DNA from: Escherichia coli | GTDB taxonomy: Bacteria; Pseudomonadota; Gammaproteobacteria; Enterobacterales; Enterobacteriaceae | Direction: 5' to 3' (one strand) | Assembly: GCF_003790525.1 (NCBI RefSeq) | Contig: NZ_CP033635.1 | Length of the DNA stretch: 64,000 bases | In this document: positions 34,201-37,200 of the stretch, one piece after another | How positions within the stretch are numbered: position 1 is the first letter of the stretch | How the letters are laid out: each line of letters opens with the position of its first letter | Position numbers: made by a program

Positions 34201-37200
34201 TACTGCTCAGCCCTAACACCGCGCCCATCAGCACGCCGGAGCAGGCTTCAAAGGCGGCAATCCCGGCCAGACCGCCAATCAGCATCAGCAAATAACAGTT
34301 AAAACCGCTGTTACCGAAAAGCGTTTTATAACTGGTAAGCAGGCGCGTGCGCGGTGCGTCGACCGGACGCGTTTCCGGCATCCAGCGGGCCATACTGAAG
34401 GTCACACCGGCACAAAGTACCAACAAAAAGAGATAACAGGCGCGCCAGTTCCACATCGTATCCAGCAGACCGCCGATTAGCGGTGCGAGCAACGGACTGA
34501 CAAGAATTCCCATGTTTAACAGGCTATTAGCATGGCGCAACTGTGTCCGTTCATATAAATCGCGCGGCAAAGTACGCGCCATTACGCCGCCAACGCCGGT
34601 GCCCATCCCCTGCATCGCGCTGGCGGCAATCAATACTGTCAAACTGGAGGTCGTGACCGCGACCAGCGTTGCCAGCATAAAAATGGACATTCCGACGAGG
34701 ATCACCGGTCGGCGACCCACACGGTCGGAAATCGGGCCATAAAACAGCTGTGAGACACCGTAAGTCAGCAGATAAGCGCCCATTACGCTCTGCACCGCCC
34801 CTTCACGGACGTTGAGATCGCGCGCCATATCGGCAATAGCTGGAATATAAATGGTTTGCGCCATCTGACCGACGGCCACGAGTAATACCAACATCAATAA
34901 CAAATTGACGTTTCTATGCCTTTTCATTATCACGGATGCTTTTATAAAAATAATTAGAATAAGTCACTACGCATTCCCATAAATGCGGGAGAGGAATCTA
35001 TCACATTGATAAATGTTAGCCAGATATACGCCAGGAATGGGGAATTGTTTAGCGGCAGAATATGTAAACAAAAGCGGCAATAAATGTTGCCGGGAGGGAT
35101 GGTAGGGCGGATAAGATGCATCAGCATTGCATCCGACACCAACCCGCACGCTAAATATGAAAGGGGAGCGGTTACCCGCTCCCCTTTGGTGCGACTTGAA
35201 TCTGAATTACTTCAGGTATTTCAGAACAGCATCAAGCAGTTGCAGTGCTGCAACAATGAGTTTGAGGATAAGAATGGCGATATCCACCAGGCTCATACGC
35301 GTCTCCTGTGGTTCAGGAGCACTGCCAGCTGACGTACCTTTCCGCTGCCTGTTGCCAGCTGTTGTGCACGCGGTATCTCAAGGAGAAACGTTGTGCTTGT
35401 TGACATAACACAGTGTGCTCACGCGGGGTTAAGGCGCTGACGGCACCACCCGTTTCAGCCAGGACTTAGTGCGCCGGGTAACGATGCGGCCCCCGCATAA
35501 CACATTGCGTACAGTGATATTATAGAAGTTTACTGTATAAATAAACAGTAATATTTGGACAAAACGAAAACTGTGATCGATACTCAACTATGTACTAAAT
35601 ACGTCAAAATTCGTGCCGAAATTGCGCGTTCTGCGCGGAACACGTATACTTTCAGTGTTGACATAATACAGTGTGCTTTGCGGTTACCAGCCGCAGGCGA
35701 CTGACGAAACCTCGCTCCGGCGGGGTTTTTTGTTACCCGCAATTCAGTACAAAACGTGATCAACCCCTCAATTTTCCCTTGCTGAAAAATTTTCCATTGT
35801 CTCCCCTGTAAAGCTGTGCTTGTATAAATATTGTTAAACACAAAACCAACAAGGTCCCCAATGACTACTTCCATGTTCAACGCAAAACTACTACCAACTG
35901 CGCCATCCGCCGCAGTGGTCGTCGTGCGTGTGGTGGTGGTCGTCGGCAATGCGCCGTAGGGACTGGAACAACACACGATTCCAAAACCCCGCCGGCGCAA
36001 ACCGGGCGGGGTTTTTCGTTTAAGCACCTCCCGGAAAGTCGGCCCAGAAGAAAAGGACTGGAGCATGGCAAGTTCGGGCACAACATCGACGCGTAAGCGC
36101 TTTACCGGCGCAGAATTTATCGTTCATTTCCTGGAACAGCAGGGCATTAAGATTGTGACGGGCATTCCGGGCGGTTCTATCCTGCCTGTTTACGATGCCT
36201 TAAGCCAAAGCACGCAAATCCGCCATATTCTGGCTCGCCATGAACAGGGAGCGGGGTTTATCGCTCAGGGAATGGCGCGCACCGACGGTAAACCGGCGGT
36301 CTGTATGGCCTGTAGCGGACCGGGTGCGACTAACCTGGTGACCGCCATTGCCGATGCGCGGCTGGATTCCATCCCGCTGATTTGCATCACCGGTCAGGTT
36401 CCTGCCTCGATGATCGGCACCGACGCCTTCCAGGAAGTGGACACCTACGGCATCTCTATCCCCATCACCAAACACAACTATCTGGTCAGACATATCGAAG
36501 AGCTCCCACAGGTCATGAGCGACGCCTTTCGTATTGCGCAATCAGGCCGCCCTGGCCCGGTGTGGATAGACATTCCTAAGGATGTGCAAACGGCGGTTTT
36601 TGAGATTGAAGCACAGGCCGCTATGGCAGAAAAAGCTGCCGCGCCTGCGTTTAGTGAAGAGAGTATTCGTGACGCAGCTGCAATGATTAACGCCGCCAAA
36701 CGCCCGGTGCTTTATCTGGGCGGCGGTGTGATCAATGCGCCCGCACGGGTGCGTGAACTGGCAGAGAAAGCGCAATTGCCAACTACCATGACCTTAATGG
36801 CGCTGGGCATGCTGCCAAAAGCGCATCCGCTGTCGCTGGGTATGCTGGGGATGCACGGCGTGCGCAGCACCAACTATATACTGCAGGAGGCGGATCTGCT
36901 GATTGTTCTCGGTGCGCGTTTTGATGACCGGGCGATTGGCAAAACCGAGCAGTTCTGCCCGAATGCGAAAATCATTCATGTCGATATCGACCGTGCAGAG
37001 CTGGGCAAAATCAAGCAACCGCACGTAGCGATTCAGGCGGATGTTGATGACGTGCTGGCGCAATTGATCCCGCAGGTGGAAGCGCAACCGCGTGCAGAGT
37101 GGCACCAGTTGGTGGCGGATTTGCAGCGCGAATTCCCGTGTCCAATCCCGAAAGCGTGCGATCCGTTAACGCATTACGGCCTGATCAACGCTGTTGCCGC

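What the first reader, a model, noticed from the sequence alone, without database searches (positions are those of the whole stretch)
35150..35722. Complete tisB/istR-1 type I toxin-antitoxin locus with LexA box and 21-nt trans-antisense repeat
The TisB peptide, its terminator, a perfect LexA operator and the IstR-1 sRNA can all be read directly. The IstR-1 5' 21-mer recurs with one mismatch (C/T at the 11th position) inside the tisAB leader, and that mismatch might modulate antitoxin pairing strength. This is a known system, reported for completeness.
Basis: partly seen in the sequence, partly recalled or inferred. Interest (0 to 1): 0.3.

Follow-up and report, generated by a model that had tools for sequence, protein, structure and literature searches.

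The report
Ordinary E. coli tisB/istR-1 toxin-antitoxin locus
This is the well-studied SOS-induced tisB/istR-1 toxin-antitoxin locus of E. coli, and the apparent "mismatch" in the antitoxin's pairing site is the normal G·U wobble pair carried by K-12 and almost every other E. coli, so nothing about it is unusual for this strain.

Summary
The window is E. coli SMS-3-5 (100% identity).

- **tisB** (29 aa) lies at 35207-35296 (-), with a strong terminator hairpin at 35160-35187.
- **LexA box** TACTGTATAAATAAACAGTA lies at 35531-35550.
- **IstR-2/IstR-1** lie at 35592/35657-35731 (+), Rfam istR 150 bits.
- **The 21-mer** occurs twice, at 35399 and 35657 (0 expected by chance), differing C/T at position 11.

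- K-12 has the identical pair, and the whole tisB leader and promoter are base-for-base K-12.
- In RNA the difference is a G(+104)·U11 wobble inside 21 unbroken pairs. It costs 1.9 kcal/mol against G-C (-33.5 vs -35.4).
- It is fixed in E. coli: the target 30-mer is identical in 4336 of 4358 genomes and the IstR-1 30-mer in 4262 of 4357.

Sixteen loci from at least 8 other enterobacterial genera all have C at IstR-1 position 11 (a G-C pair). Positions 7 and 12 covary between the two copies. The E. coli wobble is therefore a derived, pairing-preserving C-to-U change.

Side observations:
- Two genomes carry a precise 258-bp deletion between the two 21-mers.
- One genome has the A-U version of the pair.
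- About 20% of E. coli lack the locus, which is already published.

Known system, low interest.

The parts
35160..35187 (-). tisB intrinsic terminator hairpin (12 bp, GUAA loop, followed by UUUCAUAUUU)
   Evidence: -24.4 kcal/mol, z = -5.7, 0 of 200 shuffles fold as well. It lies 20 nt downstream of the tisB stop codon.
35207..35296 (-). tisB CDS, 29-aa membrane toxin (Ser2 allele; K-12 has Asn2 because of a C/T SNP at 35292)
   Evidence: (RefSeq WP_000060506.1). The Ser2 allele is in 3339 genomes and the Asn2 allele in 1004.
35293..35406 (-). tisA ORF (37 codons) within the tisB leader. From my recollection of Darfeuille et al. 2007 it is not translated, and its start region is part of the standby/IstR-1 site.
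   Evidence: ORF present. No Pfam or NCBIfam match. Its AUG is at +107, inside the IstR-1 target.
35297..35512 (-). tisB 5' UTR. +1 = 35512, +42 (5' end of the active processed mRNA) = 35471, +106 (5' end of the inactive RNase III product) = 35407, tisB AUG = +217.
   Evidence: the published base identities at positions 50, 51, 54-57 and 74-77 (PMC7708055) fit only +1 = 35512 (10 of 10). The sequence is 100% identical to K-12 over 35293..35566. The roles of the isoforms come from PMC6690012.
35399..35420 (-). IstR-1 target / single-stranded standby region in the tisB mRNA (+93/+94..+114). The wobble G is at +104 (window 35409).
   Evidence: It overlaps the published single-stranded region, +85..+111 (PMC6690012).
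35519..35524 (-). tisAB promoter -10 hexamer TATAAT, 7 nt upstream of +1
   Evidence: Read from the sequence. The position is consistent with +1 = 35512. Its function as a promoter is inferred.
35531..35550 (.). LexA operator TACTGTATAAATAAACAGTA. It covers the -35/spacer region of the tisAB promoter and sits 5 nt upstream of the istR-2 -35 hexamer.
   Evidence: unique in the window; identical in K-12; a CTGT-N8-ACAG box at the same place in 18 of 19 other enterobacterial loci.
35556..35584 (+). istR-2 promoter-like site, TGGACA-17-GATACT
   Evidence: The expected start, about 7 nt downstream, agrees with the annotated IstR-2 5' end (K-12 3853257 = window 35592).
35592..35731 (+). IstR-2 (140 nt, the longer transcript)
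   Evidence: K-12 annotation transferred through alignment A1. Rfam RF01400 covers 35602..35731.
35645..35650 (+). istR-1 promoter -10 hexamer TATACT, 7 nt upstream of the G at 35657
   Evidence: Read from the sequence. Inferred only, and not reported by the consensus scan because the -35 is weak.
35657..35731 (+). IstR-1 antitoxin sRNA (75 nt). The 5' tail of 21-22 nt pairs with the tisB leader, U11 is at 35667, and two hairpins follow, the second being the terminator.
   Evidence: nt 1-12 unpaired, z = -4.05. RefSeq K-12 places the 5' end 2 nt further in, at 35659 (73 nt).

Best explanation
The region is the canonical chromosomal tisB/istR-1 type I toxin-antitoxin module of E. coli, here in strain SMS-3-5, sitting between emrD/ysdE and ivbL-ilvB.

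Mechanism. This was established experimentally in K-12 and transfers directly, because the leader, the promoters and IstR-1 are base-identical:
1. LexA bound at 35531-35550 represses the leftward tisAB promoter. DNA damage relieves that repression.
2. The primary +1 mRNA, starting at 35512, is translationally inert.
3. Removal of 41 nt gives the +42 mRNA. Its single-stranded region, about 100 nt upstream of the sequestered tisB ribosome-binding site, acts as a ribosome standby site that depends on ribosomal protein S1.
4. The constitutive 75-nt IstR-1, transcribed rightward from 35657, uses its free 5' tail to form a 21-22-bp duplex with +93/94..+114 of the mRNA.
5. That duplex blocks standby and triggers RNase III cleavage, producing the inert +106 species.
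6. If tisB mRNA outnumbers IstR-1, the 29-aa TisB peptide inserts into the inner membrane, depolarises it, lowers ATP and promotes dormancy and persistence.

The C/T difference between the two DNA 21-mers is the native central G(+104)·U(11) wobble of this duplex. It arose by a C-to-U transition in istR-1 on the lineage leading to E. coli, because all other sampled genera have G-C there. It preserves pairing and is most simply neutral or nearly so.

Shown here: the presence, coordinates and identity of all parts; identity to K-12; the wobble, its energy cost and its fixation; cross-genus covariation of the helix.

Inferred from the literature: LexA control, processing, standby, RNase III cleavage and toxicity.
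For: - Source: the window is E. coli SMS-3-5, and RefSeq annotates tisB there.
- Identity to K-12: the alignment is 99% identical overall, with no difference at all from 35293 to 35566 (tisA, leader, target, promoter, LexA box) or within IstR-1.
- Family matches: Rfam istR at 150 bits; TisB family models are passed.
- The repeat exceeds chance: 2 hits against 0 expected.
- The duplex is 21 contiguous pairs with one G·U. Energies are -33.5 kcal/mol native, -35.4 with G-C, -33.5 with A-U and -29.2 with a true mismatch.
- The published numbering maps uniquely to +1 = 35512. This puts the target at +94..+114 and the +106 cleavage product inside the duplex, consistent with PMC6690012.
- The IstR-1 5' tail is predicted to be free.
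- Fixation in E. coli: the target 30-mer is identical in 4336 of 4358 genomes and the IstR-1 30-mer in 4262 of 4357. A true A-U version occurs in 1 genome, and no genuine G-C version was found.
- Other genera: Rfam confirms istR in 18 loci, and 16 of them could be scored for pairing. All 16 have C at IstR-1 position 11.
- Across 11 distinct haplotypes (the other genera plus E. coli), 97.9% of pair cells are paired, against 20-48% when the register is slid. Positions 7 and 12 show compensatory changes.
Against: Nothing contradicts the identification. Limits:
- No experiment was done on this strain.
- Thermodynamic folding of the +1 versus +42 leaders reproduces the published opening of the target only weakly (mean unpaired probability 0.39 vs 0.47).
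- RefSeq K-12 annotates IstR-1 as starting 2 nt further in (73 nt). If correct, that would shorten the duplex to 19-20 bp.
- Neutrality of the wobble is inferred, not tested.
Confidence: 0.96

Rival explanations
1. One reading: the C/T difference is a strain-specific or otherwise notable mismatch that weakens IstR-1/tisB pairing and so changes antitoxin strength in this genome.
For: The two DNA 21-mers do differ at position 11. A G·U is 1.9 kcal/mol weaker than G-C in the nearest-neighbour model.
Against:
- It is a wobble pair, not a mismatch.
- It is present in essentially all tisB-carrying E. coli genomes.
- All published functional work on this system was done with exactly this pair (PMC6690012, PMC4147584).
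Confidence: 0.02
2. The G·U wobble is a selected, functional tuning element in E. coli. It sits in the free 5' tail of IstR-1 and 2 nt 5' of the RNase III scissile bond (+105/+106). It could adjust the association rate, the position or efficiency of cleavage, or the mRNA-to-sRNA threshold at which TisB is made.
For: - It is fixed in more than 99.9% of E. coli loci, while every other sampled genus has G-C.
- The wobble G is at +104, next to the +106 product end.
- U11 lies in the predicted single-stranded nucleation tail of IstR-1.
Against: - A single fixed transition that preserves pairing is what neutral drift predicts.
- The energy cost is about 5% of a very stable duplex.
- Other genera have further U·G wobbles at IstR-1 positions 20 and 22, and even an A×C mismatch at position 5. 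The helix therefore tolerates such changes without any obvious pattern tied to the cleavage site.
- One natural E. coli isolate has the A-U form.
- No experiment addresses the question.
Confidence: 0.08
3. The repeated 21-mer is a chance or recombinational duplication with no pairing function.
For: It is a direct repeat in DNA, and it does act as a recombination substrate: two genomes carry a precise 258-bp deletion between the copies.
Against: - No chance occurrences in 100 shuffles.
- The repeat is conserved in at least 9 genera, with compensatory changes at two positions and only pairing-compatible one-sided changes at most others.
- Published biochemistry shows IstR-1 binding and RNase III cleavage at this site (PMC6690012).
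Confidence: 0.01

Closest known systems
tisB/istR-1 (tisAB-istR) type I toxin-antitoxin locus of E. coli K-12 MG1655 (b4618/b4616)
   Same: - Same chromosomal site, between emrD/ysdE and ivbL-ilvB.
- Same divergent layout around one LexA box.
- Identical tisA, leader, target, tisAB promoter, LexA box and IstR-1 sequence.
- The same G·U at IstR-1 position 11.
   Different: Only polymorphisms separate the two:
- TisB Ser2 instead of Asn2. Ser2 is the majority allele, in 3339 genomes against 1004.
- One base in the istR-2 promoter spacer (35567) and one at IstR-2 +2 (35593).
- One base in the tisB terminator loop.
- Changes in the flanking REP and in the sequence downstream of istR.
tisB/istR loci of other Enterobacteriaceae (Citrobacter, Enterobacter, Kosakonia, Phytobacter, Lelliottia, Superficieibacter, Siccibacter, Pluralibacter)
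   Same: - A 29-aa TisB-like ORF, a LexA box and an Rfam-confirmed istR in the same arrangement.
- The IstR 5' end repeats in the tisB leader 236-253 nt away.
   Different: - IstR-1 position 11 is C (a G-C pair) in all of them.
- Position 7 is often G/G and position 12 sometimes G/G, both compensated in the two copies.
- Several have an A×C mismatch at position 5, so their contiguous pairing is 17-18 bp.
- TisB differs at up to 9 of the 27 compared residues.
Other SOS- or standby-type type I systems of E. coli (dinQ/agrB, zorO/orzO) and hok/sok
   Same: - A small hydrophobic membrane toxin.
- An inert primary mRNA that must be processed.
- An antisense sRNA that pairs in the 5' UTR far from the toxin ribosome-binding site, followed by RNase III cleavage of the duplex (PMC4147584, PMC5066626, PMC7708055).
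   Different: - The sequences are not homologous.
- hok/sok works through translational coupling to mok rather than through a standby site, and Sok is cis-encoded (PMC4147584).

Membership tests
tisB/istR-1 type I toxin-antitoxin system | TisB: a 29-aa hydrophobic peptide matching the curated TisB family models | tested here: met
   Pfam PF13939 at 37.6 bits (cut-off 25). NCBIfam NF011340 at 69.9 bits (cut-off 53) and TIGR04459 at 61.5 bits (cut-off 38), full length 1-29. RefSeq annotates tisB here.
tisB/istR-1 type I toxin-antitoxin system | IstR sRNA: sequence and structure match to Rfam RF01400 above the gathering score | tested here: met
   150.1 bits against 45, E = 3e-32, model positions 1-130 of 130, at 35602..35731 (+).
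tisB/istR-1 type I toxin-antitoxin system | Divergent tisAB and istR genes sharing an intergenic LexA operator | tested here: met
   tisB is on the minus strand and istR on the plus strand. The LexA box at 35531..35550 lies between them and is identical to K-12. The same layout is found in other genera.
tisB/istR-1 type I toxin-antitoxin system | Trans-encoded antisense: the IstR-1 5' end has about 21 nt of complementarity to the tisB 5' UTR, about 100 nt upstream of the tisB ribosome-binding site | tested here: met
   21 (22) contiguous pairs including G·U, -33.5 kcal/mol. The target is at +94..+114 and the tisB AUG at +217. 0 expected by chance. Covariation across genera.
tisB/istR-1 type I toxin-antitoxin system | Chromosomal position between emrD and ilvB (PMC9040746) | tested here: met
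   emrD at 33743..34933 (-), ivbL and ilvB from 35861 and 36065 (+). The paper statement is quoted.
tisB/istR-1 type I toxin-antitoxin system | mRNA isoforms +1 (inert), +42 (active, open standby site) and +106 (inert RNase III product) | tested here: inconclusive
   The sequence is identical to K-12 over the whole leader and the published numbering maps uniquely, so the published results should transfer. In-silico folding shows only a small rise in target accessibility from +1 to +42, 0.39 to 0.47. The isoforms themselves cannot be observed with these tools.
tisB/istR-1 type I toxin-antitoxin system | TisB toxicity (membrane depolarisation), neutralised by IstR-1; SOS (LexA) induction | not testable with these tools
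   Needs expression, depolarisation and persister assays plus LexA binding or induction experiments. Known for K-12 (PMC4147584, PMC6690012, PMC2826370).

The most novel reading that the evidence does not exclude
The central G(+104)·U11 wobble is a species-specific regulatory setting rather than a neutral substitution. It is fixed in essentially all E. coli, while all other sampled genera keep G-C. It lies in the free nucleation tail of IstR-1 and 2 nt from the RNase III scissile bond. It could tune the binding rate or cleavage of the IstR-1/tisB duplex, and so the SOS threshold at which TisB-dependent dormancy is triggered.
Probability: 0.08. Interest if true: 0.35.

Novelty: already known. 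Interest (0 to 1): 0.1.

Why it matters
It matters little for discovery. The locus is a textbook type I toxin-antitoxin system and the model case for ribosome standby, and this copy is functionally identical in sequence to the K-12 one.

The checking still gives three useful results:
- It removes a false lead. The "mismatch" is the native wobble.
- It documents that the IstR-1/tisB helix is supported by natural covariation across at least 9 genera.
- It shows that the E. coli G·U is a derived intermediate on the classic G-C → G·U → A-U path, with one natural isolate already at A-U.

It also shows a cost of the trans-antisense design. The two 21-nt direct repeats can recombine and delete the whole control region.

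Tried and rejected
2. The genome contigs DNA pattern, built from the IstR body, was GC-rich. Salmonella, Shigella and other Escherichia species were therefore not retrieved, although 19 enterobacterial loci were.
3. The two E. coli hits to an "IstR-1 C11" query looked at first like a G-C allele. They turned out to be a 258-bp deletion fusing the two repeats.
4. The 700-770 genomes with a 1-nt variant in the 41-mers around each repeat raised the possibility of covariation. In the three genomes I fetched (two per site), the changes lie outside the 21-mers, at 35398 and 35654.
5. The primary papers (Vogel 2004, Darfeuille 2007) are not held. I recovered the mRNA numbering from base identities quoted in PMC7708055 instead.
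6. Folding of +1 versus +42 gave only weak support for the published structural switch. I do not rely on it.
7. The weak Rfam "P6" hit at 35985..36042 (20.6 bits against 50) lies 26 nt downstream of the ivbL stop codon, before ilvB, and scores far below the family's gathering score. I take it to be the ilvBN attenuator/terminator hairpin and not a family member.
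Full report
**What is there**

The window is 100% identical over 35100-35800 to the chromosome of E. coli SMS-3-5 (NC_010498.1). RefSeq annotates emrD, ysdE, tisB, ivbL and ilvB around the finding.

On the minus strand:
- tisB is a 29-codon ORF at 35207..35296, MSLVDIAILILKLIVAALQLLDAVLKYLK. It passes the curated cut-offs of Pfam PF13939 and of NCBIfam NF011340 and TIGR04459.
- It is followed by a 12-bp terminator hairpin at 35160..35187 (-24.4 kcal/mol, z = -5.7).
- It is preceded by the 37-codon tisA ORF at 35293..35406, which matches no family.

On the plus strand:
- Rfam's istR model matches 35602..35731 at 150.1 bits (gathering score 45, E = 3e-32).
- Transferring the K-12 annotation through the alignment puts IstR-2 at 35592..35731 and IstR-1 at 35657 (or 35659 per RefSeq)..35731.

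Between the two genes lies TACTGTATAAATAAACAGTA at 35531..35550. It is the only such site in the 64 kb. The CTGT-N8-ACAG core is perfect, and by my count 18 of 20 positions match the full LexA consensus.

A promoter-like site, TGGACA-17-GATACT at 35556..35584, fits the IstR-2 start. TATAAT at 35524..35519 (-) and TATACT at 35645..35650 (+) sit 7 nt upstream of the tisAB and IstR-1 starts. I read these from the sequence, and their function is inferred.

**The repeat**

GTTGACATAATACAGTGTGCT (35657..35677) recurs at 35399..35419 as GTTGACATAACACAGTGTGCT. There are 2 hits at up to 3 mismatches and none in 100 shuffles.

tisAB is transcribed from the opposite strand, so this direct DNA repeat is an RNA-RNA complementarity. 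Written as RNA, the C/T difference is G (mRNA) opposite U (IstR-1 position 11). That is a wobble pair, so the duplex is 21 uninterrupted pairs, or 22 with a further G·U at position 22.

| Pair at position 11 | Duplex energy (kcal/mol) |
|---|---|
| G·U (native) | -33.5 |
| A-U | -33.5 |
| G-C | -35.4 |
| True mismatch | -29.2 |

All four values are nearest-neighbour estimates.

It does. The alignment to MG1655 shows both 21-mers identical to the window, with no difference anywhere from 35293 to 35566 or within IstR-1.

The only differences from K-12 inside the locus are:
- TisB codon 2 (Ser here, Asn in K-12)
- one base in the istR-2 promoter spacer
- one base at IstR-2 +2
- one base in the tisB terminator loop

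The Ser2 allele is the majority form, in 3339 genomes against 1004 for Asn2. It is also the form found in five of the six Citrobacter loci with a TisB ORF; the sixth, C. sedlakii, also has Ser2 but differs at four other residues.

**Mapping the published mechanism**

The pseudoknot paper quotes base identities at mRNA positions 50, 51, 54-57 and 74-77 (PMC7708055). Only +1 = window 35512 satisfies all ten. This gives:

| Feature | mRNA position | Window coordinate |
|---|---|---|
| Transcription start | +1 | 35512 |
| 5' end of active processed mRNA | +42 | 35471 |
| IstR-1 target | +94..+114 | 35419..35399 |
| Wobble G | +104 | 35409 |
| 5' end of RNase III product | +106 | 35407 |
| tisA AUG | +107 | 35406 |
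| tisB AUG | +217 | 35296 |

This agrees with the published single-stranded standby region, +85..+111. It also agrees with the description that IstR-1 pairs across that region and RNase III then generates the inert +106 RNA (PMC6690012).

IstR-1 folds with nt 1-12 free, followed by two hairpins (z = -4.05). My folding of the +1 and +42 leaders reproduces the opening of the target only weakly (0.39 vs 0.47 unpaired). I rely on the published probing, which applies because the sequence is identical.

**Population level**

- The locus is found in 4360 of 5426 complete E. coli genomes.
- The 30-mer starting at the target is identical in 4336 of 4358 genomes. The 30-mer starting at IstR-1 +1 is identical in 4262 of 4357.
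- Common nearby SNPs lie just outside the 21-mers, at 35398 and 35654.
- Sampled rare IstR-1 variants are uncompensated singletons: A12C, G1A, and a 1-nt deletion after the 21-mer.
- A query for the leader with T at position 11 (an A-U pair) hits one genome, CP61_Sichuan, and this is a genuine SNP.
- A query for IstR-1 with C at position 11 hits two genomes. Both carry a precise 258-bp deletion between the two repeats, which removes the tisAB promoter, the LexA box and both istR promoters.

No genuine G-C allele was found in E. coli.

**Other genera**

A pattern scan built only on the IstR body left the pairing region unconstrained. It returned 19 enterobacterial loci among many chance hits.

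- Rfam confirms istR in all 18 non-E. coli loci, at 58.9-132.9 bits.
- 16 of these 18 loci show a TisB-like ORF, and 17 of the 18 show a LexA core box at the same place.
- In the 16 loci where both copies could be placed in register, IstR-1 position 11 is always C, giving a G-C pair. Only E. coli has U.
- Position 7 is A/A or G/G in both copies, with one exception. Position 12 is A/A or G/G.
- Counted formally on 11 distinct haplotypes, 97.9% of cells pair, against 20-48% when the register is slid. Two pairs show compensatory changes.
- All one-sided changes but one have U in IstR opposite G in the mRNA, the orientation that keeps pairing. The exception is a G·U at position 1 with the U on the mRNA side.

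The E. coli G·U is therefore a derived C-to-U transition in istR-1 that preserves the helix. It is an intermediate on the usual G-C → G·U → A-U path.

**Verdict**

A selected role for the wobble is not excluded. It is fixed, lies in the free tail of IstR-1, and sits 2 nt from the RNase III cut. Neutral fixation explains the data, and other genera tolerate further wobbles and even a mismatch in the same helix. Interest is low.

**Context already in the literature**

Absence of tisB/istR from phylogroup B2, E. albertii and clade V, and its constant position between ilvB and emrD, are reported in PMC9040746. My counts agree: about 1066 of 5426 genomes lack it, including Nissle 1917 and ATCC 11775. 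The boundaries of the segment in the window are about 35097 and 35784.

Noticed in passing
window 35399..35677; loci L127 (NZ_CM183924.1, strain GMF054) and L128 (NZ_AP045174.1, strain JNEC-KY178): Two E. coli genomes carry a precise 258-bp deletion between the two 21-nt direct repeats. It fuses the tisB leader copy to the IstR-1 body and removes the tisAB promoter, the LexA box and both istR promoters. The trans-antisense design thus creates its own recombination substrate. The two strains share coordinates and flanking protein accessions, so this may be a single event in one lineage.
   Followed up: yes
L129 (NZ_CP053730.1, strain CP61_Sichuan), equivalent to window 35409: This one E. coli genome, out of about 4358 with the locus, has T instead of C at leader position 11. 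The two 21-mers are then identical and the pair is A-U, completing the G-C → G·U → A-U path.
   Followed up: yes
window ~35097..35784; L006 (Nissle 1917): About 20% of complete E. coli genomes (1066 of 5426, including Nissle 1917 and the type strain ATCC 11775) have emrD, ysdE, ivbL and ilvB but lack tisB/istR. About 155 bp of unrelated sequence replaces about 688 bp. Absence from phylogroup B2 is already published (PMC9040746).
   Followed up: yes
loci L012, L024, L026, L052, L076, L086, L089, L095, L108, L119: Rfam-confirmed istR occurs in Kosakonia, Phytobacter, Lelliottia, Superficieibacter, Siccibacter, Pluralibacter and Enterobacter spp.; all of these loci except the Pluralibacter one (L026) also show a TisB-like ORF. 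This is a wider range of genera than listed in PMC9040746 (Citrobacter, Salmonella, Escherichia/Shigella, Enterobacter cancerogenus), although it stays within the same family.
   Followed up: partly
window 35292 (tisB codon 2): TisB here has Ser2 and K-12 has Asn2. Ser2 is the majority E. coli allele (3339 vs 1004 genomes) and is shared with Citrobacter, so the laboratory reference carries the minority form.
   Followed up: yes
IstR-1 positions 5, 20 and 22 in the loci of other genera: One-sided changes in the helix are almost always U in IstR opposite G in the mRNA (positions 11, 20, 22). The leader copy is the more conserved of the two. Eight loci (Enterobacter, Kosakonia, Phytobacter, Superficieibacter, Siccibacter, UBA3516) have an uncompensated A×C mismatch at position 5, which leaves 17-18 contiguous pairs.
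   Followed up: partly
window 35657 vs 35659 (K-12 3853192 vs 3853190): RefSeq K-12 annotates IstR-1 as 73 nt, starting 2 nt downstream of the G that begins the 21-mer (the 75-nt form). If that 5' end is right, the duplex is 19-20 bp rather than 21-22 bp.
   Followed up: no
window 35009..35083 (+) and ~35100..35145: The small annotated gene ysdE (24 codons) lies between emrD and the tisB terminator. It is followed by a REP-like palindromic element at the left edge of the tisB-istR segment. Some genomes have about 139 bp extra in the 34000..37000 interval (two-piece matches).
   Followed up: no
window 35861..35959 (+): The ivbL leader peptide here reads MTTSMFNAK..., the WP_001312198.1 form. 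Other E. coli genomes I fetched carry different ivbL protein accessions (WP_001300753.1, WP_001315912.1). From memory, K-12 has Leu at position 6. The weak Rfam 'P6' hit at 35985..36042 (20.6 bits vs 50) lies 26 nt downstream of the ivbL stop and is most likely the ilvBN attenuator/terminator hairpin, not a family member.
   Followed up: no
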